The notes under the pieces were generated by a model that worked only from the letters and a program-made list of their open reading frames with translations, made no database searches and had not been told where the DNA came from. From IMG/VR virus record IMGVR_UViG_3300045988_155182: a DNA stretch of 64,000 nt, one strand, 5' to 3'. The translations under genes and the position numbers were made by a program. This document shows, in pieces, positions 11,427 through 64,000 of the stretch (position 1 is the stretch's first letter; every line of letters starts with the position of its first letter). The DNA is from a virus (Duplodnaviria; Heunggongvirae; Uroviricota; Caudoviricetes).

Positions 11427-11501
11427 GATGGTGTAGCTCAGCGGTAGAGCAGTTGGCTGTTAACCAACTGGTCGGTGGTTCGAATCCACCCACCATCGCC
11501 A
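11427..11501 (+). tRNA. tRNA-Asn (anticodon GTT)
   Basis: Cloverleaf by eye: acceptor gatggtg/caccatc, D-arm gctc...gagc, anticodon loop ctGTTaa, T-arm ggtggTTCGAATccacc, encoded CCA. Confidence 0.85.
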
Positions 11502-11503
11502 AT

Positions 11504-11579
11504 GCCGGTTTAGCTCAGTTGGTAGAGCGCCTGCCTTGTAAGCAGGATGTCAGCGGTTCGAGTCCGTTAACCGGCACCA
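11504..11579 (+). tRNA. tRNA-Thr (anticodon TGT)
   Basis: Acceptor gccggtt/aaccggc, anticodon stem-loop cctgc-cttGTaa-gcagg (anticodon TGT), T-arm agcggTTCGAGTccgtt, encoded CCA. Confidence 0.85.
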
Positions 11580-11803
11580 ATACAACGATAAGATCATTAC
11601 GGTTAATCGTCGTTCATGTGCACAATGACTGGTCGAAAGGTAGTGATCTTACCGTTGTGGTGGATTCGCAGACTGATGCGATAGCTTTCTTGGATGTTAG
11701 GGAAATGCGGCCGCAAATCTTCCCTTTCGCGAGCGGTGATCGTCCGTAGTCCTAATTGGCTGCACCGTATGCCGGAGATTCAGTACCGGCCACCACAACG
11801 GCC

Positions 11804-11890
11804 GGAGAGTAGGGAGCATGGTGCTCAAGCGGTCTTGAAAACCGTCCCATTGCGCAAGCGATGATGGTTCGATTCCATTACTCTCCGCCA
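11804..11890 (+). tRNA. tRNA-Ser (anticodon TGA), type II with long variable arm
   Basis: Acceptor ggagagt/actctcc, anticodon loop cTTGAaa, long extra arm, T-loop GGTTCGATTCC, encoded CCA. Confidence 0.75.
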
Positions 11891-13427: not shown

Positions 13428-13606
13428 CCACCAAACTCACTCCCATTTCCCTTAAAATTCAAAAAACAACGTCAAAATGATTCCATACCTACTATGTATG
13501 GAATCATTGCTGAAAATGAGTTACTTTTACTCTTGATCCTATAAGAATCTATGCCTAATATACTGTTTACTTATACAGTGCATCGGCGTAACTCGGTGAT
13601 TGTCAT

Positions 13607-22822: not shown

Positions 22823-23095
22823 AAAGAATTATGGCGCTTGTTGAGGAAGTCACTCCTCTTACGCACTTTGTTTTGCCATGCCGGCAGTTAGCTTCTGCCT
22901 TTGACTATTCATGCGGCAACCCCGCATTTCGCCACAATGGGCAATTCACTTTTATGGAATAAACTGGCCGTTGTGTCGATTTAATTAGCATGGCCTTACC
23001 ATGCTAATTTATTCAACTTGTACAATCCTACAAATCTATCCACTCAGGCTTACACCGTCTTCGTTATTGTAGAAATGAGGATCATCAGCGTTGAA

Positions 23096-23311
23096 TCAGC
23101 TTAGAGCAACGACATTTGCTGCTGCTGGGCCTTTAGCACCATTCTCGATAGAGAATTCGACCTGCTGGCCTTCTTCCAAAGTGCGGAAATTATTACTCTG
23201 AATTGCCGAAAAATGTACAAAAACATCTTTACTGCCATCAGCAGGAGAAATAAAGCCAAAGCCTTTATCAGAGTTAAACCATTTTACTAAACCAGTCATT
23301 TTATTAGACAT
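23096..23311 (-). CDS. Cold-shock protein, CspA family
   Basis: [38 protein letters not shown]... with RNP motifs; start reassigned to the internal ATG at 23309-23311. Confidence 0.85.
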
Positions 23312-23640
23312 AGATATTACCTTCTTAATTTTGTGAGCCACATAGTGCGGCGAGAATTTGATCTGTATAGATTGGGACTTACTTAGGCACTTAAGGAGGA
23401 GACTCACGAAGAAGGGAAATCAGAAGATAACACTGAACTGAGACTGCTTTACTAAAACTGCTTACATAAGGTCTGTCTTGCAAACCAACGATGCTATTAA
23501 CGCATACCCCTTCTTTTCATGCAACCTTTATTTTTCAAAGATAACTAATTTTTGTCACCATTGGTTTAGTAAACGTTAACGAACCAGACGATGCCAGACA
23601 CCTTTACAGAGAACAGATGCCCGCCAATTGGCGGGCATCA

Positions 23641-54197: not shown

Positions 54198-55883
54198 ATG
54201 AATACAGCCCTTTCCATCATCGACGATGCCAACTCAAACACTGCTATCGACTATCGGAAGGAAATGAACGTCATCCACGAAATTGTGGCCGAGTGCGAGA
54301 AAGAGATCGCCTTCATGTATCAGGTTCACGACTTCGTTTATGGCGACGAACGCCACAACATGATTAATCGCCTGCTGAGACTAAACCATCGACCAGATGA
54401 AGATCGCTCGCGTTTAAATCGAGGTTGGTTGGATAAAGTCGATCTGGAATGGGTGAAACAGAATATTTGGGCCGAGTACTGGAGGAAGGTCACGGACATG
54501 ACTAACGTTTTGCTGATCATGCCAGCTTCCCGTCGAGATGAGTGGCGCGAGCAGTTTATAGAGGGCAAACAGGAAGTCATCAAAACTGACAGAACCGGCT
54601 ACCAGATGAAGGTTAAAGAGTTCGTTGGTGTACCGGAGTTCAAAGCAGAAACGGTCATACCCACGATGCTTAATTTGCTGAATGACAGGCACAAATATCT
54701 CTCTGAGCGCGTGTATGGCTTGTTTAAGGCGCTGAGTCCTGCGCACAAGACAAATAAGACAAACGGTTTCAGCGAGCGTCTGATAATCGCTGACTGCATT
54801 TCTGATTTCTGGCGGGACAGCGTTAGCGTGAACTATCGCAAAGAGGACTACATCGACGATCTGCGTGTCTTGCTTCATTTCTTCGCGCACAAAGAATTTA
54901 TTACCATCAACCGCACTGCTGAGGTGCTATCAGCTGCGTATCGAGCAAACGACTGCCAGACCGGTGACTGGATGAACGTCGATGGAAATCTGATGCGCGT
55001 GAAGATGTTCAAGAACGGCAACGTTCACTTTGAAATACATCCTGACGTGGCCTGGAAGTTGAATGAGGTGCTGGCTTACAGTATGCCTGCTGCAATCCCC
55101 GCGCCATGCCGAACTGCGCCAAAAACACGGGCACCAAAGCAGTTCGGGTTAATCCAGAAGACGATCTCCGTGCCGGTTCGCACTGCGCTTCGTGACGGGC
55201 GATTGAGCAAAGACAAAGGCGTATGGTACTTCTCTGATTCAGCTCTCCAGAAGTCGCAGGTGGAAGAGCTTGAGCGCACACTGAGCTTCATTGGCGGCGT
55301 GCAGGAGAAAAAGCACTGGCAGTTCCCGTATGACATCGGCCATACGCTAAATACGATTGTGGCTACCGGTTTAATACCGGATACAAAATCACACCAGTTC
55401 TACCCTACCCCACGCTTGATTGCTGAGTACGTTGCCAGAGCCACTGAATTGAAGCCTGGTGAGAAGCTGCTGGAGCCTCAAGCCGGACGTGGGGATCTTC
55501 TGGCCTATATTAACGCCGATCTGGAAGATGTTACCTGCATAGAAATCGCACCTCTCTTCGCTGATATCCTGCGTGGAAAAGGGTATACGAACACGATTTG
55601 CTGCGACTTCATAAAGTGGTCTGAGGACAACGCAGGTTATCAGTTCGACAAAATCGTTATGAACCCGCCGTACTCGCTTGGTCGTCATAGAGAGCACACG
55701 CTGGCTGCGCTGGGGCATCTGAAAGTCGGCGGGCGTCTTGTAGCAGTATTGCCGGGCACTGCGCCAATACTGGACTGGATGACGATGGATAATTACGTTT
55801 ATGCCAGAGGGAAGTCGTTTACCAACGAGTTTGAAGACACAGGGATCACAGTCAGCGTATACGTTTTCAAACGCGTTAAATGA
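54198..55883 (+). CDS. Putative SAM-dependent N6-adenine DNA methyltransferase with a large N-terminal domain
   Basis: C-terminal motif I-like LEPQAGRGDL and catalytic NPPYS; 561 aa. Confidence 0.55.
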   Translation: MNTALSIIDDANSNTAIDYRKEMNVIHEIVAECEKEIAFMYQVHDFVYGDERHNMINRLLRLNHRPDEDRSRLNRGWLDKVDLEWVKQNIWAEYWRKVTDMTNVLLIMPASRRDEWREQFIEGKQEVIKTDRTGYQMKVKEFVGVPEFKAETVIPTMLNLLNDRHKYLSERVYGLFKALSPAHKTNKTNGFSERLIIADCISDFWRDSVSVNYRKEDYIDDLRVLLHFFAHKEFITINRTAEVLSAAYRANDCQTGDWMNVDGNLMRVKMFKNGNVHFEIHPDVAWKLNEVLAYSMPAAIPAPCRTAPKTRAPKQFGLIQKTISVPVRTALRDGRLSKDKGVWYFSDSALQKSQVEELERTLSFIGGVQEKKHWQFPYDIGHTLNTIVATGLIPDTKSHQFYPTPRLIAEYVARATELKPGEKLLEPQAGRGDLLAYINADLEDVTCIEIAPLFADILRGKGYTNTICCDFIKWSEDNAGYQFDKIVMNPPYSLGRHREHTLAALGHLKVGGRLVAVLPGTAPILDWMTMDNYVYARGKSFTNEFEDTGITVSVYVFKRVK

Positions 55884-55944
55884 TAGGTAAATACTTACTT
55901 AATTTGTGTAAGAATGTAATAACTAAACGATAAGAGAAAAACAC

Positions 55945-56649
55945 ATGAACAACCTCCAGTTAGAGCATTTTAACGTCACAGGCCATTCTGATTTTCCTTT
56001 CAAGTTTACATTGAAAGGTTATGCAGAGGATGCGGTAGGCCAGATCATTATTGATAAAGGCATCGTTAAGTTTGAGGGGGATTTTGATGAATCCGCGAAA
56101 ACATTCATAGACTTCGTTGCCAAACGTTGGAGCGAGCAATGGAAAGACCTGGAAAAGCGCGCTAGTGAGTTTGATCGGTTCATGGATGCAATGAATACAG
56201 CAAAAGAGGCTCTTGCTGCCGGGACTCCGTTAGATCTGGAGTCACTTTTCAACGGCGAAGTGGCCTCTGCGATGTTCGCCACCATGTTCGCGGGTGAGTT
56301 CGTCCGCAGCGGTGCCAAAAACTACCTTGAGCTGGATTACAACGTCCCTGCAATTGGCGATTTCGTCGTTACCATCCAACGCAAAGAAGGTAAGACGCCA
56401 GGTGAACGCGTCGCAGAGCTTGAGGCCGTTGTGGATCAGCGTAACGGAGAGTGTGACCGTTTGATCAACGAGCTTCATGCACTTCGGGAAGAAAGAATAT
56501 GCGCGGGTAGCAATACACGTAATGCAGCGGATATCTACTTCCAGTTAGTTGAGGAATGCCAGATTCCACCAGGCGGCTCTCTTGTCGATTACGTCAGACA
56601 TTTAATGACGGAAGTTAACTCCAGCCATAAAGATGGTGAGGTGCGCTGA
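55945..56649 (+). CDS. Hypothetical protein
   Basis: 234 aa; conserved aaaaacacATG start. Confidence 0.35.
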   Translation: MNNLQLEHFNVTGHSDFPFKFTLKGYAEDAVGQIIIDKGIVKFEGDFDESAKTFIDFVAKRWSEQWKDLEKRASEFDRFMDAMNTAKEALAAGTPLDLESLFNGEVASAMFATMFAGEFVRSGAKNYLELDYNVPAIGDFVVTIQRKEGKTPGERVAELEAVVDQRNGECDRLINELHALREERICAGSNTRNAADIYFQLVEECQIPPGGSLVDYVRHLMTEVNSSHKDGEVR

Positions 56650-57029
56650 TGTTTGGCATTGACGCACAGCGTGTAGCCGCTTTTGCAAAAAGCCCTCTTG
56701 ATAATCCCTTGTCTCGTAGTGAGCAAATGGAGCTGGCAAGGCTTTTTCTTCACATTCAAAAACAGGCAGACATTTTCAATAACATGCCTAATCAACCTAT
56801 TCTGGATGGTCACATCCAGATGGTCATTAACAGTCATGAGAAAGGCTGGGCTGCAATCGTCCCCTGCACAATTACATACAAGTTGGCGAAAGAGGTTCAA
56901 GAGTTTCGAAAAGCCAGTGTCGAATCGGAGTCTACCAAAGCCGCAATAAACACTCTTATTCGCATGGGGTTCACATGGACCGGTGGAGCCTACTGGCAAG
57001 CACCTCAACCCATTTTATCCGGCAATTAG
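56649..57029 (+). CDS. Hypothetical protein
   Basis: 126 aa; coupled start. Confidence 0.3.
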   Translation: MFGIDAQRVAAFAKSPLDNPLSRSEQMELARLFLHIQKQADIFNNMPNQPILDGHIQMVINSHEKGWAAIVPCTITYKLAKEVQEFRKASVESESTKAAINTLIRMGFTWTGGAYWQAPQPILSGN

Positions 57030-57167
57030 GCGCTACAAATCCTTCTGCATGAATAAATAAAGGCCATAACTTATGGCCTTAAATAAATTGTTTTCTACCT
57101 TTTCTTATTTGTGAAAATAAACCAGCACTTGGTAGTGCTTATGTAACAGCAAAGAAGAGAAAAACAC

Positions 57168-57668
57168 ATGAGTAACAAAATCGAAAATCCCGTAGTTCTC
57201 ATTCACAAGCGCGAGAACCACGACTCCTATGCGGTGGCGATCACCAATGGGAGTCACGATTTTTACGATGGCCTGCTAATGGCCTCAGTGTCGCCTGATG
57301 AGGCAGATAACTCTTTTGCCGTCTTCGCTATGGTTGGTTACTACATGGCTGCCGAAATTGAGAAGTTGCTGGCGCAAAGAGACGCATTAGCGGCGGAGAA
57401 TGCAGCCCTGAAAGAATCTGAGCGAGCATTCGATGCGATGTGTGCCGAGGAACACGGAGATAATTGGGTTAGCGAATTGACGGAGACTCCAGCCACCGAT
57501 GCTTTTCTGGCTGAAGTACGTGCGCAGGGCGTGGATATGGCTCGTAACGCGATGATTGATTTTGTTGATGGTGAAGTTGGGCCAAACAAGAACGTTCCGG
57601 GGCTGATTAGAGGCGCAGAGATATGCGTAAGTATTGCTGAACAGCTTCGTAAAGGAGTCATCCAGTGA
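57168..57668 (+). CDS. Hypothetical protein
   Basis: 166 aa; conserved aaaaacacATG start. Confidence 0.35.
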   Translation: MSNKIENPVVLIHKRENHDSYAVAITNGSHDFYDGLLMASVSPDEADNSFAVFAMVGYYMAAEIEKLLAQRDALAAENAALKESERAFDAMCAEEHGDNWVSELTETPATDAFLAEVRAQGVDMARNAMIDFVDGEVGPNKNVPGLIRGAEICVSIAEQLRKGVIQ

Positions 57669-58066
57669 GCAAGATTGACTATCAGGCACTGCGTGAGGCG
57701 GCAGAGCGTGCAATTCCGGCAATGGAACGCCTGTTAATGTTGCCAGTTGATGATGATCTGATATGCGAACAGGAACTTAAAGATAGCGGTGTTGATATTG
57801 ATGCCCTCAACGCCTTCAAATTTCTGGCCGGACCAGAAACCGTGCTGGCACTACTGGATGAGATCAACGCATTAGAGGAAACGCGTATCAACGATGTTTG
57901 CCGTATTGCGGAACTAACAAAACAACTGGAGTTGGCAAAATCAAAACTCAACGAGCAGCGTGAGTATTACGAGGGCGTTATCTCGGATGGAAGTAAGCGC
58001 ATAGCCGCTCTTCTTCGCAAGGACAATCTTGCCAGCGCCACGAACATTGAAGGTGAAAGAAAATGA
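57665..58066 (+). CDS. Hypothetical protein
   Basis: GTG start overlapping the upstream stop (GTGA); 133 aa. Confidence 0.3.
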
Positions 58067-58386
58067 CCACATCGCACTCTGCTATTACCCAAGAAAAAGT
58101 CTTCAACATACTCGAACGACTAGAGACGCTCGCTACGGAGGAGGATATATCCCCGGAGAAACTGGTTGAGTTCAGCCGTGTGATATTGCGTCGCAAGAAC
58201 GATATGGAGCGGCTGACATCTGGCGCTCCATCCTTATCAGTCAGGCGAACACTTTGTTGCAGCTTCTGCAACAAATCCCAGTACGCCGTCAAAAAGTTAA
58301 TTGCTGGGGACGCCGTTTTCATCTGCGACGAGTGTGTGGATGTGTGCAACAGAATTATCCGGGGAGAGAAAGAGGGATCAGCATGA
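58063..58386 (+). CDS. Small protein with a C-terminal ClpX-type zinc-binding domain
   Basis: C-terminal 45 aa [39 protein letters not shown] are nearly colinear with the E. coli ClpX N-terminal ZBD ([36 protein letters not shown]). Confidence 0.6.
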
Positions 58387-58913
58387 AATTTTCCAAATTT
58401 TCTGAGTTGGTGAATCGTATTTTGTCCAACAACCACAGCCATCGTCGCGATATGGATGTAACGATCGTTGTTCATTCGCCTGGTCGCATCGGTTCAACAC
58501 CATCAGTTGAGGTTCAGTCAATTCAGGCGGGTTTTGATTGGGATGCCGGGCAAGTGATGATTTTTCCAGCACAGCCACTGACCACGCTAACACCAGAGCA
58601 GGTTGCTGATATCACTGATAGTGTGCGCAAAGGTCAGTCTTGGCACGCGTATCAGGAATACAAGAAGCATAAAGAGCAGTTGGAAAAATTGTCGATGGAG
58701 TTGGAAGGCGCTAAACAGCGGGAAAAAGATCTGTTTATGGAAAATGTTCGACTTAAGTCAGGTATAGCCGGTCTGATACACCTCGGTATTCGATATGCGG
58801 ATGTTGAGGTCATGAAAATTGCTGGAGATGCCCAGCTTTCTACTCCATGCACTGACAGCATCATAAACAGCATTGCAGCAGGCATTTTCACCAAAGAGGG
58901 GGCAGCACGATGA
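58383..58913 (+). CDS. Hypothetical protein
   Basis: ATG overlapping the upstream stop (ATGA); the track ORF 58254..58913 extends upstream in the same frame. Confidence 0.3.
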
Positions 58914-59095
58914 GAACACTAGAGGTTCGCGCTGAAGACGTAATCCCTGGTGATGTGCTCATAACATCTAAAGGTCAACAATGTGCGGTTAAATCTTTTT
59001 GGATGGAAAATGACAAAGTGACTCTGTTCGGTACGGATGGTTCCGAAACTGATTATGACTACGACGAATTGCTTGTTGTTGAGAGAGCTGCCTAA
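58910..59095 (+). CDS. Hypothetical small protein
   Basis: 61 aa, coupled. Confidence 0.3.
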   Translation: MRTLEVRAEDVIPGDVLITSKGQQCAVKSFWMENDKVTLFGTDGSETDYDYDELLVVERAA

Positions 59096-59748
59096 TGACC
59101 ACCGTTAACAATAAGAAATGCTACCCAAGCGAGAAATATCTTAATGAGCTGATCACCAACATTGAGTTTGCTGCAAGAGCACCAGTTGAAGTCGTGAGAG
59201 CGATTGCAGCAGAGCTACAGAAGCACCGTAAGGCCTATGCCAATACAGCCGCATCTAAGGATGGTTGGATAAGCTGTAGTGAGCGAATGCCTGTAATTGG
59301 CGAGCTAAATTGGAGAACTAGTTTTCCTTTACTGGTTACGTGTGAGATCGGCGTTATACCTGCTTATTACGGCTTTGTGAGCGTTAATGGTGATAGGCAT
59401 TATGGCTTTATGGAGAGTCTTAAATACGGAGACGCTAACGGCAACCATCCTCAAACTAATGAATATGGTCTGATTAGCAATGTCACACACTGGATGTCAC
59501 TACCAGAACGCCGCAGGAGTCGAACAGTGAATAATGCAGAGTTATTTCAGAAAATATCGGCTCTCGCGACTGAATGCCACGCTATAGCATCTGAGCTTGA
59601 TGTTGGCGATGAACGAACCGAGATGTTCGAAATATACAGTGTGCTGCGCAATCTCTGTCGGCGTGGCTACGCCACTCAAGTAGGGCGAATGACTAACCCA
59701 CTACTCTCATCCTGTGATGAGGATGACTCGGATGAGGATGACGAATGA
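59095..59748 (+). CDS. Hypothetical protein with acidic C-terminal tail
   Basis: 217 aa ending DEDDSDEDDE. Confidence 0.35.
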   Translation: MTTVNNKKCYPSEKYLNELITNIEFAARAPVEVVRAIAAELQKHRKAYANTAASKDGWISCSERMPVIGELNWRTSFPLLVTCEIGVIPAYYGFVSVNGDRHYGFMESLKYGDANGNHPQTNEYGLISNVTHWMSLPERRRSRTVNNAELFQKISALATECHAIASELDVGDERTEMFEIYSVLRNLCRRGYATQVGRMTNPLLSSCDEDDSDEDDE

Positions 59749-60128
59749 TGCATAAATCAGTAGCCGGTGAGTTTCAGAAGGAAGTCGATAATACTACCGT
59801 TCTATTGGACGATATTTTAAGCATTCTCGCGCTGCTTGAGGCTGGCGATTGGTCAGAACATTGCACTAAAACAGAGCTAGGCGGTCGGCTTGAAAGAGAG
59901 ATTACACGACTGATTAGCGATGCCCAAAATGATTTGTCACCTGAGCATCTCCCCTGCGATGTAGTTCTTGTGCCAGGGATGAGGATACACGAAGGCGTCA
60001 GAACGAAAACATTATTAACCGCATTACAGAGAAGAGCCGAACTAAGCTCGCGGATAAAGTTGATGCCATCCAAAATATTTGATGTCGTCAAATTTACGCC
60101 ATCGCAACATACTGAGAGAGATAAATGA
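59745..60128 (+). CDS. Hypothetical protein
   Basis: 127 aa, coupled. Confidence 0.3.
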   Translation: MMHKSVAGEFQKEVDNTTVLLDDILSILALLEAGDWSEHCTKTELGGRLEREITRLISDAQNDLSPEHLPCDVVLVPGMRIHEGVRTKTLLTALQRRAELSSRIKLMPSKIFDVVKFTPSQHTERDK

Positions 60129-60751
60129 GCACGGTAGCGAAAGATCTCACAGAAGATATTCTCAATGAAATTATTGCTGGTGCAAATACCTCGCTTGAGC
60201 AACTTCTTGCGTTAGCACTGATAGCCGAACGTCGAGACAGAAATCGTTTTTATGAGCGATTACCAGGGAAGCGACCAGATAGATCGGATGAAGAAGGTTG
60301 CGATATAGACTACATGGAGCCTTCAGAGATTTATCAACTTGGTAAAGATGACGGCTGGAACGCTTATCACGATGCTGTGATGAAGTTGGATGAAAAAGTT
60401 AAACCTCTTTCTCGACCGGTAGATCACGGTTTCCGCGATAACTGCGAATGCTCTAGTTGCCAGACCACGGCCCGTATTTGTTCCGAATTGACAGATAAGT
60501 CCAGCCTAATCTACGAAGTTAATGTAGGCGGTAATACATGGGTCGAATGCACAAGAGCTGCATACGTAAGAGCAAAAGACAAGGGTGAATTAACCAGAGT
60601 TGTTGCCCATCACCCAAATAATGAGCTTAAAGATCACCAGATTAGAGAACTGGTGAACGAGTTGCGGGATATTGCGGTTCAGTACCACGGAACGCAGCAA
60701 TTGCGGGAGAAAATTGCCAGAGCAGTGAACAACTCAGTCCGTAAAAAATAA
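60125..60751 (+). CDS. Hypothetical protein
   Basis: 208 aa; last gene of the long plus-strand block. Confidence 0.35.
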   Translation: MSTVAKDLTEDILNEIIAGANTSLEQLLALALIAERRDRNRFYERLPGKRPDRSDEEGCDIDYMEPSEIYQLGKDDGWNAYHDAVMKLDEKVKPLSRPVDHGFRDNCECSSCQTTARICSELTDKSSLIYEVNVGGNTWVECTRAAYVRAKDKGELTRVVAHHPNNELKDHQIRELVNELRDIAVQYHGTQQLREKIARAVNNSVRKK

Positions 60752-60964
60752 GCAATAGTACGATAAAGAGGCCCCATGCTCTTGATGGGGCCTGTAGCAA
60801 CTAGCGTTATGGACGCTGGTTTACGTACTCAATGATCGCTTTGATAATCGCGAACATCGGCGGCACGATTTTGAACAGTAAGTTAACCATAACAGGCCTC
60901 ACTTAGTTTTATCGCGCCTAGCTGCAAATACCTTTGGGCTTGCCTTTGCAGTTGCAATATCTGT

Positions 60965-61153
60965 AGTCGCCAGATACTTACGGCACGATTTCGAGTTAAG
61001 GTAAGGTTTTAGAGTCACCAAAAACCTGGACTTAAATCTTCTTTGAGAACAACGATGTTTAGTAAATGGTCATTATTACCTGGTATGACCACTCAACCTT
61101 TCTTGATGAATCCAGTACATTCGGTTAATCTTAATTCAGTCGCCAGATACTTA
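60965..61153. repeat. Pair of 16-bp direct repeats (AGTCGCCAGATACTTA) 173 bp apart in the ORF-free junction region
   Basis: Exact copies at 60965-60980 and 61138-61153; the second is followed by two tandem hairpin plus T-tract terminators (61161-61190, 61192-61222). Confidence 0.5.
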
Positions 61154-61516
61154 TGGCTCAGGAACAGAGCCGCAAACTCTGTTTCCTTTTAAAAAGCCCA
61201 GCCTAGTCAACTGGGCTTTTTAATGTCTATTTTTAACCCAACATACCCTCAATACTGCAACATCAGTGTCTTGCGAATTAAGATAGTGTGAATAGATTTT
61301 TCATGCAAGTGCATAAGCCTGTGGATAACTCAGGAAGGAAAAAGTGACTTCTGCGCACTTTAGACCGGACAAGGCGTTCGAAAAAGTCAATGGGAAGAAA
61401 AAATTTGTTAAAAATAACGTTTGTTTGAATTGTATATATTTATGCCTTTCAATAGTTAGCATCTTATTAACATCTTTTTTAAGAGATAGAGTTCAAAAAT
61501 ATATAGCTTCAATATA

Positions 61517-61536
61517 TACTGTATGTGTATACAGTA
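61517..61536 (+). promoter_or_regulatory. LexA (SOS) box upstream of the UmuD'-like gene
   Basis: tactgtatgtgtatacagta = CTGT-N8-ACAG palindrome, 16 bp upstream of the ATG, with AAGAGG RBS between. Confidence 0.65.
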
Positions 61537-61552
61537 TTAAGAGGCGAGTATT

Positions 61553-61942
61553 ATGGGCTTCCCTTCTCCTGCGGCGGATTATGCTGAGAGCCGTATTTCT
61601 CTTGATCAGCAGATAATTAGACATCCTTCAGCGACCTACTTCATGAGGGCAGCTGATAGTCATCATCGTGAGGGAATATTACAGGGTGCATTGCTGGTGG
61701 TCGATTCCTCACTTACCCCGGTTGATGGTTCTCTGCTTGTATGCGCTCTGGATGGGGAATATCGCGTAAAAAGATACCGGAAGTACCCACGTCAGCATCT
61801 GGAGGATTTAAGAACCGGTAAGAAGGAAGCATTGCCAAAGGATGACGATGGATGCACGGGCAGCAATGCCGTGTTTGGTGTGATCACTCACATTATCAAC
61901 GACGCAAGAAGTGGCGAGTTTGATGATTGTCCCGTGATGTAG
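61553..61942 (+). CDS. UmuD'-like protein (S24 peptidase fold, HumD-type, encoded already in the processed form)
   Basis: Begins MGFPSPAADYAE, which corresponds to UmuD immediately after its Cys-Gly self-cleavage site; conserved Ser (ADSHH) and Lys (GEYRVKRYR) positions present; no umuC follows. Confidence 0.8.
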   Translation: MGFPSPAADYAESRISLDQQIIRHPSATYFMRAADSHHREGILQGALLVVDSSLTPVDGSLLVCALDGEYRVKRYRKYPRQHLEDLRTGKKEALPKDDDGCTGSNAVFGVITHIINDARSGEFDDCPVM

Positions 61943-61953
61943 GAGAACTGATT

Positions 61954-61979
61954 AGGCGGTGCAATGCACCGCCTTTTTA
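61954..61979. terminator. Hairpin terminator between the UmuD'-like gene and the convergent mrp gene
   Basis: aggcggtgc aa tgcaccgcct followed by ttttat; abuts the mrp stop codon. Confidence 0.6.
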
Positions 61980-63080
61980 TCACACTGCGCGGAATGCGAT
62001 TTCGCTAGGTATTACTTCACCTTGCCAATACATTTGGGCAGCAACGCGATCTGCGAGGTCACGATAAATAGCTGTAAATTCGCTATCTGGACGACTAATA
62101 ACGGTTGGTGTTCCGTTATCCAGATCTTCACGAAGAGAGATATGAAGTGGCATTTGGCCTAACAACTGCGTGTTGTATTTCTCGGCCAGTTTCTGTGCGC
62201 CACCGGTGCCAAAAATTGGCTCGTGATGACCGCAGTTACTGCAAATATGCACACTCATGTTTTCGACGATACCCAGTACCGGCACTTCGACTTTTTCGAA
62301 CATCACAATGCCTTTCTTCGCATCGATCAGCGCGATGTCTTGCGGCGTAGTTACCACAACCGCACCAGTTACAGGAATGTTCTGCGCCAGCGTCAACTGA
62401 ATATCACCAGTGCCCGGCGGCATATCGAGAACGAGATAGTCCAGATCAGGCCATAGAGTTTCCTGCAACATCTGCATCAGCGCCTTGCTGGCCATCGGTC
62501 CACGCCACACCATTGCATTGTCGTCGGTGACCAGATAACCAATAGAGTTGGTTGCCAGGCCATGAGACATGATAGGTGCCATGTGAGTACCGTCAGGTGA
62601 GGTTGGACGTTGGTTTTCCGCGCCCAGCATGGTTGGAATTGATGGCCCATAGATATCGGCATCCAAAATACCAACTTTCGCACCTTCAGCAGCCAACGCC
62701 AGTGCCAGGTTTACCGCCGTTGAGGATTTACCCACGCCGCCCTTGCCTGAGCTGACGGCGATAATGTTCTTAACGCCATTAATGCCTGGTTGGTTTTTGA
62801 CGCGCTTAAGCGTGGCAATGTTGTACGACAGCTTCCAGTCAATAGCCTTTGCGCCAGTGATACGGAGCAGATCACCACTACATTGCTCTTTCAGGTCTTC
62901 AAAAGGCTTATTCCACACGAAAGGCATGATTAGTTCGACATGCAGTGTGTCATCCATCAACGCAACATGGTGTAACGCTTTAAGCGTAGTCAGGTTGTGT
63001 TTCAGGGTTTGGTGCTGAAAATTAGCCAGCGTACCGGCTACCATTGCTCTCAGGGCATCCGGCGATTTGGACTCGCTCAT
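61980..63080 (-). CDS. apbC: Fe-S cluster carrier ATPase Mrp/ApbC (chromosomal housekeeping gene)
   Basis: 366 aa; deviant Walker A SGKGGVGKSST, C-terminal CSNCGH motif; typical divergent arrangement with metG. Confidence 0.9.
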   Translation of the reverse strand: MSESKSPDALRAMVAGTLANFQHQTLKHNLTTLKALHHVALMDDTLHVELIMPFVWNKPFEDLKEQCSGDLLRITGAKAIDWKLSYNIATLKRVKNQPGINGVKNIIAVSSGKGGVGKSSTAVNLALALAAEGAKVGILDADIYGPSIPTMLGAENQRPTSPDGTHMAPIMSHGLATNSIGYLVTDDNAMVWRGPMASKALMQMLQETLWPDLDYLVLDMPPGTGDIQLTLAQNIPVTGAVVVTTPQDIALIDAKKGIVMFEKVEVPVLGIVENMSVHICSNCGHHEPIFGTGGAQKLAEKYNTQLLGQMPLHISLREDLDNGTPTVISRPDSEFTAIYRDLADRVAAQMYWQGEVIPSEIAFRAV

Positions 63081-63237
63081 CCCGTCTCCTTTATTTTAAT
63101 TTGCGCAATTGTCGCCTTGTAGTGTACTCCAGCTACGACATTTAATCATTTATGAGAAATGCTGTTATCACATGGCAGACATAAGGCCATTTTGTTACTA
63201 TCAAGCCCCTTTTCACTACAAAGAAGTAATGCCTACT

Positions 63238-64000
63238 ATGACCCAAGTCGCGAAGAAAATTCTGGTGACGTGCGCGCTGCCGTACGCTAACGGCTCAATC
63301 CACCTCGGCCATATGCTGGAGCACATCCAGGCTGATGTCTGGGTTCGTTACCAGCGAATGCGCGGCCACGAGGTTAATTTCATCTGTGCCGACGATGCCC
63401 ACGGTACGCCGATCATGCTGAAAGCGCAGCAGCTTGGTATCACACCGGAGCAGATGATTGGCGAAATGAGTCAGGAACACCAGACTGATTTCGCAGGCTT
63501 TAACATCAGCTATGACAACTATCACTCGACGCACAGCGAAGAGAACCGTCAGTTGTCTGAGCTTATCTATACTCGCCTGAAAGAGAACGGTTTTATTAAA
63601 AACCGCACTATCTCTCAGTTGTACGACCCGGAAAAAGGCATGTTCCTGCCGGATCGTTTTGTAAAAGGCACCTGCCCGAAATGTAAAGCGCCAGATCAAT
63701 ACGGCGATAACTGTGAAGTCTGCGGCGCGACCTACAGCCCGACTGAACTGATCGAGCCGAAATCGGTGGTTTCTGGCGCTACCCCGGTAATGCGTGATTC
63801 CGAACACTTCTTCTTTGATCTGCCTTCTTTCAGCGAAATGTTGCAGGCATGGACCCGCAGCGGCGCGTTGCAGGAGCAGGTGGCGAACAAAATGCAGGAA
63901 TGGTTTGAATCCGGCCTGCAACAGTGGGATATCTCCCGAGATGCGCCTTACTTCGGTTTTGAAATTCCGAACGCGCCGGGCAAATATTTCTACGTCTGGC
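63238..64000 (+). CDS. metG: Methionyl-tRNA synthetase, 5' portion (gene continues beyond the window)
   Basis: [46 protein letters not shown]... with HIGH-type motif (SIHLGH) and zinc knuckle CPKC...C..CG; no stop before the window end. Confidence 0.9.

What the first reader, a model, noticed from the sequence alone, without database searches (positions are those of the whole stretch)
60752..61552. ORF-free 800-bp junction region with 16-bp direct repeats and tandem terminators
No ORF occupies the space between the last operon gene and the UmuD'-like gene. AGTCGCCAGATACTTA occurs twice in direct orientation (60965 and 61138); the second copy is followed by two consecutive hairpin plus T-tract terminators (61161-61190 and 61192-61222), the layout expected for a short plus-strand sRNA of about 50-80 nt. 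The repeats could alternatively be recombination (att-like) sites marking the element boundary.
Basis: seen in the sequence. Interest (0 to 1): 0.5.

Follow-up and report, generated by a model that had tools for sequence, protein, structure and literature searches.

The report
Unannotated small-RNA-controlled toxin module on phage-plasmid
The "empty" 800 bp is not an element boundary: it very probably holds a small hidden gene pair, a 27-residue membrane-type peptide and a short RNA that pairs with its messenger, of the kind plasmids use to kill cells that lose them, and this pair belongs to a sequence family I could not find described.

Summary
The 16-mer repeat and the two hairpins are real, but the region is neither ORF-free nor a junction. 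The window is an SSU5-like phage-plasmid (Cyrano/pLF82 type) that itself carries apbC(mrp) and metG; collinearity with plasmid pAVS0223-B runs gap-free across the region. The left 470 bp fits a type I toxin-antitoxin module laid out like dinQ/agrB. On the minus strand lies a 27-codon hydrophobic ORF (60807-60890) with a Shine-Dalgarno sequence, a terminator and a structured 5'UTR. On the plus strand lies an 84-nt sRNA (61138-61221). Repeat copy 2 is the sRNA 5' end; copy 1, read on the other strand, is its target in the toxin 5'UTR (20 bp with one G.U). Across 12 distinct relatives the two copies co-vary: 10 of 22 pairs show compensatory changes and 97% of cells stay paired. Differences between copies are mostly wobble-compatible in the predicted orientation only. 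The ORF is under purifying selection (pN/pS 0.06-0.2). The peptide, 5'UTR and sRNA fail the DinQ, DqlB and AgrB models, so this is a separate, unnamed family. The right 250 bp is P1/P7-like humD upstream DNA with a DnaA box and a LexA box. Expression and toxicity are untested.

The parts
60759..60793 (-). Terminator-like hairpin of the toxin mRNA (AGGCCCCAU...AUGGGGCCU followed by CUUUAUCG)
   Evidence: Found by the terminator scan. Relatives have a stronger hairpin with a T-tract at the same place.
60807..60890 (-). 27-codon ORF plus stop: MVNLLFKIVPPMFAIIKAIIEYVNQRP, the putative type I toxin
   Evidence: Sequence read. Conserved in 32 unique loci. Window type versus Kluyvera copy: 9 synonymous against 2 non-synonymous differences, pN/pS 0.06. 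The L018 clade keeps the frame with a GTG start. No match in Pfam, NCBIfam, PHROGs or PADLOC.
60897..60902 (-). Shine-Dalgarno GUGAGG, 6 nt before the AUG; it lies in a hairpin with codons 2-5
   Evidence: Sequence. The hairpin is in the family consensus fold (columns 157-184 of A3) and in the window minimum-energy fold.
60891..61045 (-). Structured 5'UTR of the toxin mRNA. Its 5' end is not mapped and may lie up to about 61090.
   Evidence: Fold z = -4.1. Conserved stem-loops lie at 61004-61027 (co-varying) and 60922-60951. No sigma-70 match was found for the promoter.
60965..60984 (-). Repeat copy 1. On the minus-strand mRNA it reads GCCGUAAGUAUCUGGCGACU, the target of the sRNA.
   Evidence: It is the best non-self duplex partner of the sRNA 5' end in the whole window: -38.5 kcal/mol against -25.5 for the next best. 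Intermolecular covariation.
60957..60977 (-). Target hairpin GUAUCUG-GCGACUA-CAGAUAU. Its loop is complementary to the very 5' end of the sRNA.
   Evidence: The stem is re-formed in variants with a different pairing sequence: L015 CACUG/CAGUG, L056 GUUAAC/GUUAAC, L053 GUGUCUG/CAGAUAC.
61103..61131 (+). Promoter-like site of the sRNA: TTGATG, 17 nt, TAATCT; the start would fall near A61138
   Evidence: Relatives keep TTGAAG, 17 nt, TAAGCT at the same distance from the repeat. This is inference from conservation. The -10 matches the consensus in only 3 of 6 positions, so the consensus scan missed it.
61138..61221 (+). 84-nt antitoxin-type sRNA. The 5' single strand (61138-61157) is repeat copy 2; stem-loop 1 is 61161-61186; the terminator stem-loop is 61191-61221.
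   Evidence: Fold. Family alignment and consensus fold. Own covariance model R1 scores 94 bits here and 64-100 bits in 29 other loci. 97% of structure cells are paired, with 31 compensatory cells. The best Rfam match is AgrB at 27.6 bits, below the gathering score of 40.
61320..61328 (.). Perfect DnaA box TGTGGATAA. It is context, not part of the toxin module.
   Evidence: Sequence. The homologous P1 stretch is annotated as containing DnaA boxes.
61517..61536 (.). Perfect LexA box TACTGTATGTGTATACAGTA, 16 nt before the humD-like gene (61553-61942). It is context.
   Evidence: P1 annotates a LexA site at the same place before humD. The gene matches the PHROG 811 UmuD-like family at 2.7e-54.

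Best explanation
Window 60759-61221 most likely holds a type I toxin-antitoxin module with the dinQ/agrB, tisB/istR-1 and zorO/orzO layout. A minus-strand mRNA carries a long structured 5'UTR and a 27-codon ORF for a small hydrophobic, probably membrane-active peptide. Upstream of it, and transcribed the other way, lies an 84-nt sRNA.

The first 20 nt of the sRNA (repeat copy 2) pair with the 5'UTR 55-75 nt upstream of the start codon (repeat copy 1 read on the other strand). Contact probably begins at a hairpin loop that displays GCGAC.

By analogy with characterised systems of this layout, pairing should keep the toxin mRNA untranslated or lead to its cleavage while the element is present. 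After loss of the phage-plasmid, a short-lived sRNA would decay first and the peptide would be made, so the module would act as an addiction (stability) device.

Shown here: the ORF, its selection, the sRNA fold, the complementarity and its co-evolution. Inferred: transcription of both RNAs, toxicity of the peptide, the repression step and the role in plasmid maintenance.
For: 1. The complementarity is unique within the 64 kb: -38.5 kcal/mol for the toxin 5'UTR against -25.5 for the next best non-self site.

2. Twelve distinct target/sRNA pairs from Escherichia, Citrobacter, Enterobacter, Kosakonia, Kluyvera, viral contigs and metagenomes were compared. 97% of cells are paired and 10 of 22 pairs show changes on both sides. 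None of 500 shuffles reaches these values, and sliding the partners drops pairing to 25-35%. Whole blocks are swapped in both copies together: ATACTTA, ATACATT, TGTTTTA, GTTAACAA.

3. Differences between the two copies are directional. 20 are C>T or A>G, which gives G.U only if copy 1 is read as minus-strand RNA and copy 2 as plus-strand RNA. Only 2 are the reverse transitions, and the 7 transversions lie at the 3' edge.

4. The ORF is conserved with pN/pS 0.06-0.2, has a Shine-Dalgarno sequence, and one clade uses a GTG start.

5. The sRNA has a conserved promoter-like site, two conserved stem-loops and a terminator.

6. The target sits in a hairpin whose stem is re-formed in each pairing variant.

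7. The module travels as a unit in different genomic contexts: next to repA, next to RepB, after a methyltransferase-like gene end (my reading of the sequence), and before humD.

8. The same layout is experimentally established. For dinQ/agrB see PMC3567139 and PMC5066626. For pOXA-48 DqlB/agrB, toxicity, rescue by the sRNA, compensatory mutations and killing on plasmid loss were all shown (PMC12365149).
Against: There is no expression data for either RNA. The toxin promoter could not be located. Toxicity is untested, and the peptide matches no known toxin family.

A simple thermodynamic test of 'sRNA binding closes the ribosome site' showed no change. Mean unpaired probability of the Shine-Dalgarno-to-AUG stretch was 0.41 with and without the target blocked, so the repression step is not explained.

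The two copies are direct DNA repeats, so gene conversion could produce some of the concerted change. Many of the compared sequences are related, so the counts are not independent events. The alignment used to count the sRNA fold was fitted to the model.
Confidence: 0.8

Rival explanations
1. The repeats are att-like recombination sites, and the region is the boundary between an inserted element and a chromosomal mrp-metG locus.
For: There are two direct repeats 173 bp apart next to housekeeping-type genes.
Against: The 801 bp is 100% identical to a circular 108-kb plasmid. Of 120 E. coli places, 110 are on plasmids. apbC and metG are annotated inside those plasmids and inside phage Cyrano. 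Collinearity is gap-free across the region. The window matches Cyrano at 99.2% and SSU5 at 77%. Both repeat copies occur together in unrelated contexts.
Confidence: 0.02
2. The repeats are binding sites for a protein (iterons, an operator or DnaA-type sites) in a regulatory or replication-related spacer, and the hairpins are ordinary terminators.
For: A DnaA box and a LexA box lie nearby. Relatives often sit next to rep genes. There is a palindrome at 61067-61091.
Against: Binding sites would not show the strand-specific bias of 20 wobble-compatible against 2 reverse transitions. They would not need a co-varying hairpin partner downstream of copy 1 only. Copy 2 would not have to sit exactly 7 nt after a conserved -10-like hexamer and in front of two conserved stem-loops. 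There are only two copies, and the sequence differs completely between lineages while staying matched within a locus.
Confidence: 0.04
3. The sRNA and the small ORF are real and paired, but the peptide is not a toxin. It would be a regulated small membrane protein with another role, for example in the phage cycle, exclusion or membrane stress, so the pair is not an addiction module.
For: Toxicity is untested. The peptide has a central Pro-Pro and three charged residues, and matches no toxin model. The window lacks the LexA control seen for dinQ.
Against: Size, hydrophobicity, the sequestered ribosome site, the long structured 5'UTR and the divergent sRNA with a 5'UTR target are the combination seen in established type I toxins (PMC5066626, PMC5397157, PMC12365149). 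The module occurs on low-copy plasmids and phage-plasmids, often near replication genes.
Confidence: 0.12
4. It is simply a member of the published dinQ-like (dql) family (dqlA or dqlB) and therefore already described.
For: The layout is the same. The repeat lies 75 nt from the start codon, as in K-12 dinQ. AgrB is the best Rfam match, at 27.6 bits and E 0.028. My sRNA model finds the pOXA-48 agrB at 23 bits.
Against: The dql genes were defined by BLAST similarity to the dinQ 5'UTR plus signature residues (PMC5066626). Here nhmmer with the dinQ or dqlB module finds each other at E 1e-19 but not this family. A profile of this family finds only the terminator of the pOXA-48 agrB. The NCBIfam DinQ and DqlB models give no hit even at E 10, while both controls score 54 and 73 bits. 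hhalign probability against DqlB is 5%. I could not see the dqlA sequences, because the figures and supplements are not held.
Confidence: 0.08

Closest known systems
dinQ/agrB of E. coli K-12 and the dinQ-like DqlB/agrB of plasmid pOXA-48 (type I toxin-antitoxin)
   Same: The peptide is 27-31 residues and hydrophobic. The sRNA gene lies upstream and is transcribed divergently. The sRNA 5' end pairs with the toxin 5'UTR about 75 nt before the start codon, which appears in DNA as a direct repeat. The sRNA consists of a single-stranded 5' end, one stem-loop and a terminator. The ribosome site lies in a hairpin. The pOXA-48 system is plasmid-borne and acts as an addiction module.
   Different: There is no detectable sequence homology of the peptide, the 5'UTR or the sRNA. 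The pairing region is 20-22 nt, against 31-35 nt. There is no LexA box at the toxin promoter and no second agrA-like copy. Some relatives carry two tandem small ORFs.
tisB/istR-1 and zorO/orzO (type I toxin-antitoxin systems with divergently encoded, trans-acting sRNAs)
   Same: Short (about 18-21 nt) complementarity lies far upstream of the ribosome site in a long structured 5'UTR. The toxins are 29-residue helical peptides (my own knowledge, and PMC5397157).
   Different: The sequences are different. tisB is LexA-controlled. The OrzO-P Rfam hit in the window lies on the wrong strand and rests on the terminator alone.
phd-doc of phage P1, the addiction module next to humD
   Same: It is a stability module placed beside the humD gene of a phage-plasmid.
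   Different: phd-doc is a protein-protein (type II) system downstream of humD. Here the module is RNA-controlled and lies upstream of humD.

Membership tests
Type I toxin-antitoxin systems (general) | Small (<60 aa) hydrophobic protein-coding gene | tested here: met
   27-codon ORF with 59% hydrophobic residues, a Shine-Dalgarno sequence, conservation across loci and pN/pS 0.06-0.2.
Type I toxin-antitoxin systems (general) | Antisense RNA gene whose product can base-pair with the toxin mRNA | tested here: met
   20-bp duplex at -38.5 kcal/mol, unique in the window. 10 of 22 pairs show compensatory change, and 0 of 500 shuffles reach the observed values. The sRNA fold is conserved.
Type I toxin-antitoxin systems (general) | Both RNAs are transcribed | not testable with these tools
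   Only promoter-like and terminator-like sites are available. The sRNA site is conserved. The toxin promoter was not found.
Type I toxin-antitoxin systems (general) | The protein is toxic when over-produced and the RNA prevents this | not testable with these tools
   This needs the expression and rescue experiment, as done for pOXA-48 DqlB/agrB (PMC12365149).
DinQ / DqlB toxins (NCBIfam NF041472, NF041473) | Peptide matches the family model | tested here: not met
   No hit even at E 10 for the window peptide and four relatives. The controls DinQ and DqlB score 54 and 73.5 bits. hhalign probability is 5% against DqlB and 0.3% against DinQ.
dinQ-like (dql) genes as defined in PMC5066626 | Nucleotide similarity of the 5'UTR to dinQ | tested here: not met
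   With nhmmer --max, dinQ and dqlB find each other at E 1e-19. Neither finds the window, and the best match to any relative is E 0.07. A profile of the family finds only the terminator.
AgrB sRNA (Rfam RF02891) | Score at or above the gathering threshold (40 bits) | tested here: not met
   27.6 bits, E 0.028, full-length alignment. The validated pOXA-48 agrB also fails the gathering score, so the model is narrow.
dinQ/agrB-type architecture | Divergent upstream sRNA gene whose 5' end is complementary to the toxin 5'UTR, well upstream of the ribosome site | tested here: met
   sRNA at 61138-61221 (+), target at 60965-60984 (-), AUG at 60890. The 75-nt offset is the same as in K-12.
dinQ / tisB (SOS-induced type I toxins) | LexA box at the toxin promoter | tested here: not met
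   No CTGT-N8-ACAG with up to 1 mismatch lies between 60990 and 61137. The only nearby box (61519-61534) lies 16 nt upstream of the humD-like gene (61553-61942).

The most novel reading that the evidence does not exclude
This would be a previously unrecognised family of RNA-controlled toxin modules specific to phage-plasmids and large enterobacterial plasmids. The 20-22-nt pairing segment would exist as several mutually non-matching 'alleles'; at least five were seen (ATACTTA, ATACATT, TGTTTTA, GTTAACAA, and the GCTGCC or GTAGCC heads). Each element would then neutralise only its own toxin, so the module could serve as a discrimination or competition device between co-resident or incoming elements. 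It might also act as an abortive-infection trigger when transcription is shut off. Some versions place two different small toxins under one sRNA.
Probability: 0.2. Interest if true: 0.65.

Novelty: new member of a known kind. Interest (0 to 1): 0.5.

Why it matters
Type I toxin-antitoxin modules are routinely missed by annotation. None of the roughly 120 E. coli records, nor the curated phage Cyrano genome, marks anything here. [quoted passage not shown]

SSU5-like phage-plasmids are common in clinical E. coli, and phage-plasmids as a class often carry antibiotic-resistance genes (abstracts of PMC9600943 and PMC12217456, seen). An RNA-controlled addiction module would help explain how they persist. 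It would also be a target for curing strategies, since the sRNA supplied in trans should permit loss of the element.

The family also offers a clean natural data set of co-evolving sRNA-target pairs. It shows several specificity variants and a target hairpin that tracks them, which is useful for studying how antisense specificity evolves.

Tried and rejected
1. Rfam at gathering thresholds finds nothing in the region. At relaxed thresholds only AgrB lies on the right strand. The Thr_leader, OrzO-P, MicC and STnc40 hits lie on the minus strand and rest on the bidirectional terminator.

2. Homology to dinQ or dqlB was rejected at the sequence level.

3. A 40-codon frame in the 5'UTR (60899-61021, minus strand) ends in the toxin Shine-Dalgarno sequence and looked like a mok-type leader ORF. 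It has early stops in L006, L007, L009, L015, L037 and L056, so it is not conserved.

4. The model 'sRNA binding re-folds the mRNA and closes the ribosome site' rested on the duplicated AUCGUGCC elements (60982-60989 and 60862-60869), which are both complementary to GGCGCGAU (60911-60918). A constrained fold showed no change in accessibility, 0.41 against 0.41. The model is left as unproven.

5. LexA control of the toxin: no LexA box is present.

6. The toxin promoter was not found by the consensus scan or by alignment.

7. The plus-strand 49-aa ORF at 61043-61192 has no family match. It overlaps the sRNA gene and its promoter-like site and was not pursued.

An exact look-up shows the peptide only as an unnamed IMG entry and one 'hypothetical protein' of a metagenomic virus.

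9. A full-text search for the peptide motifs returned 0 papers.

10. Accession JN626286 is not in the collection, so NC_019154 was used instead.

Full report
**What is in the sequence.**
The 16-mer AGTCGCCAGATACTTA is present exactly twice in the 64-kb window, at 60965 and 61138 on the plus strand. The match extends to 20 nt with a single C/T difference. Copy 2 is followed by a stem-loop at 61161-61186 and then by a strong terminator stem-loop with a T-tract at 61191-61221. The 87-nt stretch folds far better than shuffles, z = -5.6.

**The region is not a junction.**
The 801 bp is 100% identical to the circular 108.6-kb E. coli plasmid pAVS0223-B. It is found in 119 of 5426 complete E. coli genomes, and 110 of the 120 places are on plasmids of about 100-120 kb. 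It is 96.8% identical to Escherichia phage Cyrano, the phage-plasmid pLF82 of strain LF82 (PMC9928086).

In those records the S24/UmuD-like gene is followed by apbC (mrp) and metG inside the element. Window 54752-64000 aligns without a gap at 99.3% to the plasmid, through apbC and into metG. Window 30000-54000 is 99.2% identical to Cyrano and 77% to Salmonella phage SSU5. The window is thus an SSU5-like phage-plasmid that carries its own apbC-metG, and the 'empty mrp-metG locus' premise does not apply.

**The left part holds a small gene pair.**
Reading the minus strand shows a 27-codon ORF at 60807-60890, MVNLLFKIVPPMFAIIKAIIEYVNQRP. It is preceded by GUGAGG 6 nt upstream and followed by a terminator-like hairpin at 60793-60769.

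Repeat copy 1 lies 75 nt upstream of this start codon. On the minus-strand RNA it reads as the exact complement of the plus-strand RNA that would start at copy 2. A conserved promoter-like site sits so that transcription would start at A61138, the first base of the repeat. It reads TTGATG, 17 nt, TAATCT in the window and TTGAAG, 17 nt, TAAGCT in relatives.

This is the layout of dinQ/agrB in E. coli K-12. There a direct repeat also links the dinQ 5'UTR and the divergent agrB gene, with the same 75-nt offset. The best relaxed-threshold Rfam match of 61143-61224 is AgrB, aligned full-length at 27.6 bits, below the gathering score of 40.

**Comparative evidence.**
Diverged copies of the module were found on plasmids of Citrobacter, Enterobacter, Kosakonia and Klebsiella. 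A conserved 5'UTR block was then used to scan the genome, viral and metagenome collections. This gave 56 loci, 32 of them unique.

In every locus with both ends present, the two repeat copies match each other but differ between lineages. Whole segments are replaced in both copies together...CCAGATACTTAYGGC...CCAGATACATTYGGC...CCAGTGTTTTACGGC...CCGGTTAACAACRGC, and GCTGCC or GTAGCC heads.

The pairs were then written as an intermolecular helix and counted.
- The 12 distinct pairs are 97% paired.
- 10 of 22 positions show changes on both sides.
- No shuffle out of 500 reaches these values.
- Sliding the register drops pairing to 25-35%.

Differences between the two copies of one locus are strongly directional. 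Twenty are C>T or A>G, which become G.U only if copy 1 is transcribed from the minus strand and copy 2 from the plus strand. Only two are the reverse transitions. Protein-binding or recombination sites would not show this asymmetry.

Two caveats apply. The sequences are related, so these are not independent events. Gene conversion between direct repeats could also contribute to the concerted change.

**The ORF is a gene.**
Eleven distinct 27-codon versions exist. The window type differs from the Kluyvera copy by 9 synonymous and 2 non-synonymous changes (pN/pS 0.06), and most comparisons give 0.06-0.2. One clade keeps the frame with a GTG start.

Some relatives carry two tandem small ORFs behind one 5'UTR. 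The two types, MLLLFLKLAHPV... and MV.LLLKI.PP..., align without gaps and look paralogous.

**RNA structures.**
The sRNA family has a single-stranded 5' end of about 22 nt, a stem-loop and a terminator. A covariance model built from it scores 64-100 bits in 30 loci (94 bits in the window). 97% of structure cells are paired, with 31 compensatory cells. That alignment was fitted to the model, so it leans towards the structure.

The toxin mRNA folds with z = -4.1. The family consensus has four elements:
- a co-varying stem-loop at 61004-61027;
- a hairpin at 60957-60977 that presents GCGAC in its loop, opposite the sRNA 5' end, and whose stem is re-formed in each pairing variant;
- an invariant hairpin at 60922-60951, although its invariance is built in, because this block was the pattern used to collect most of the loci;
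- a hairpin that buries the Shine-Dalgarno sequence and the AUG.

**How it probably works.**
The sRNA 5' end would contact the target loop and zip into a 20-bp duplex far upstream of the ribosome site. In the characterised systems of this layout (dinQ/agrB, tisB/istR-1, zorO/orzO, pOXA-48 DqlB/agrB), such pairing blocks formation or use of the translatable mRNA form and leads to cleavage. On plasmids, it causes killing of cells that lose the element (PMC5066626, PMC5397157, PMC12365149).

I infer the same here, but the step from pairing to repression is not shown. A constrained fold of the window mRNA gave no change in ribosome-site accessibility when the target was blocked. The toxin promoter was not located. 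No LexA box serves the toxin.

**Comparison with known families.**
The module works like dinQ/agrB but is not a detectable member of that family.
- The NCBIfam models for DinQ and DqlB do not match the peptides at any threshold, while both controls match strongly.
- Profile comparison gives 5% probability or less.
- nhmmer links dinQ and dqlB to each other at 1e-19 but not to this family. The family profile finds only a terminator in pOXA-48.
- Pfam, PHROGs and PADLOC have nothing.
- The exact peptide exists in public protein sets only as an unnamed entry and one 'hypothetical protein'.
- Full-text searches for its motifs find no paper.

I could not inspect the published DqlA sequences. Those were found by BLAST from dinQ, which this family is not. 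I therefore file it as a new family within a known kind of system.

**The right part of the finding.**
Positions 61301-61552 are about 79% identical to DNA upstream of humD in P1, P7 and SJ46. They contain a perfect DnaA box at 61320-61328 and a perfect LexA box at 61517-61536, just before the humD-like gene. The bidirectional terminator at 61189-61223 separates this SOS-controlled unit from the toxin module.

**Verdict.**
The repeats and hairpins are real. The claims 'ORF-free' and 'junction' are wrong.

The sRNA reading is supported and extended to a full toxin-antitoxin module. The att reading is rejected.

Confidence in the sRNA-plus-small-ORF module is about 0.8. Toxicity and the addiction role remain to be tested. 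Interest is moderate: it is an unannotated and apparently undescribed type I family on clinically common phage-plasmids, with unusually clear co-evolution of the sRNA and its target.

Noticed in passing
window 61980-63080 (-) and 63238-64000 (+): apbC (mrp) and metG, normally chromosomal housekeeping genes, are carried as cargo by this SSU5-like phage-plasmid. They are conserved in pAVS0223-B and in phage Cyrano.
   Followed up: partly
window 61301-61552: This stretch is shared at about 79% identity with P1, P7 and SJ46 upstream of humD. It has a perfect DnaA box (61320-61328) and a perfect LexA box (61517-61536). P1's hot and lxr genes are absent here.
   Followed up: partly
window 61067-61073 / 61085-61091: Perfect palindrome TGGTCAT-N11-ATGACCA between the sRNA promoter and the toxin 5'UTR. 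Relatives have different palindromes at the same place, for example AACCGTT-N13-AACGGTT in L005. It could be an operator or a 5' hairpin; this is unexplained.
   Followed up: no
window 60862-60869, 60982-60989 and 60911-60918: AUCGUGCC occurs twice in the toxin mRNA, once in the 5'UTR next to the sRNA target and once at codons 8-10. Both copies are complementary to GGCGCGAU just upstream of the Shine-Dalgarno sequence. This suggests alternative long-range helices, but a simple accessibility test showed no effect.
   Followed up: partly
L005 1860-1950, L006 1850-1930, L007 1900-1950 and other relatives: A conserved block follows the module in the diverged relatives and is absent from the window: CTATATGGTGAGTATTCTAGTAAGGATTCTTTTCAGTACAAGAGTTGATTTTGAGGTTAA. 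A DnaA box often lies in between.
   Followed up: no
L005, L007, L008, L010, L026, L056, L058 (left of the conserved 5'UTR block): These variants have two tandem small hydrophobic ORFs behind a single 5'UTR and a single sRNA: a 26-28-aa MLLLFLKLAHPV... type followed by a 25-27-aa MV.LLLKI.PP... type.
   Followed up: partly
window 11427-11890 (+): A cluster of tRNA-Asn(GTT), tRNA-Thr(TGT) and tRNA-Ser(TGA) on the phage-plasmid.
   Followed up: no
window 23071-23489 (-): Full-length match to the cspA thermoregulator (Rfam RF01766, 187.6 bits), which implies a cspA-type cold-shock gene with its 5'UTR on the element.
   Followed up: no
window 13563-13578: A second perfect CTGT-N8-ACAG LexA-type motif (CTGTTTACTTATACAG) elsewhere in the window.
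   Followed up: no
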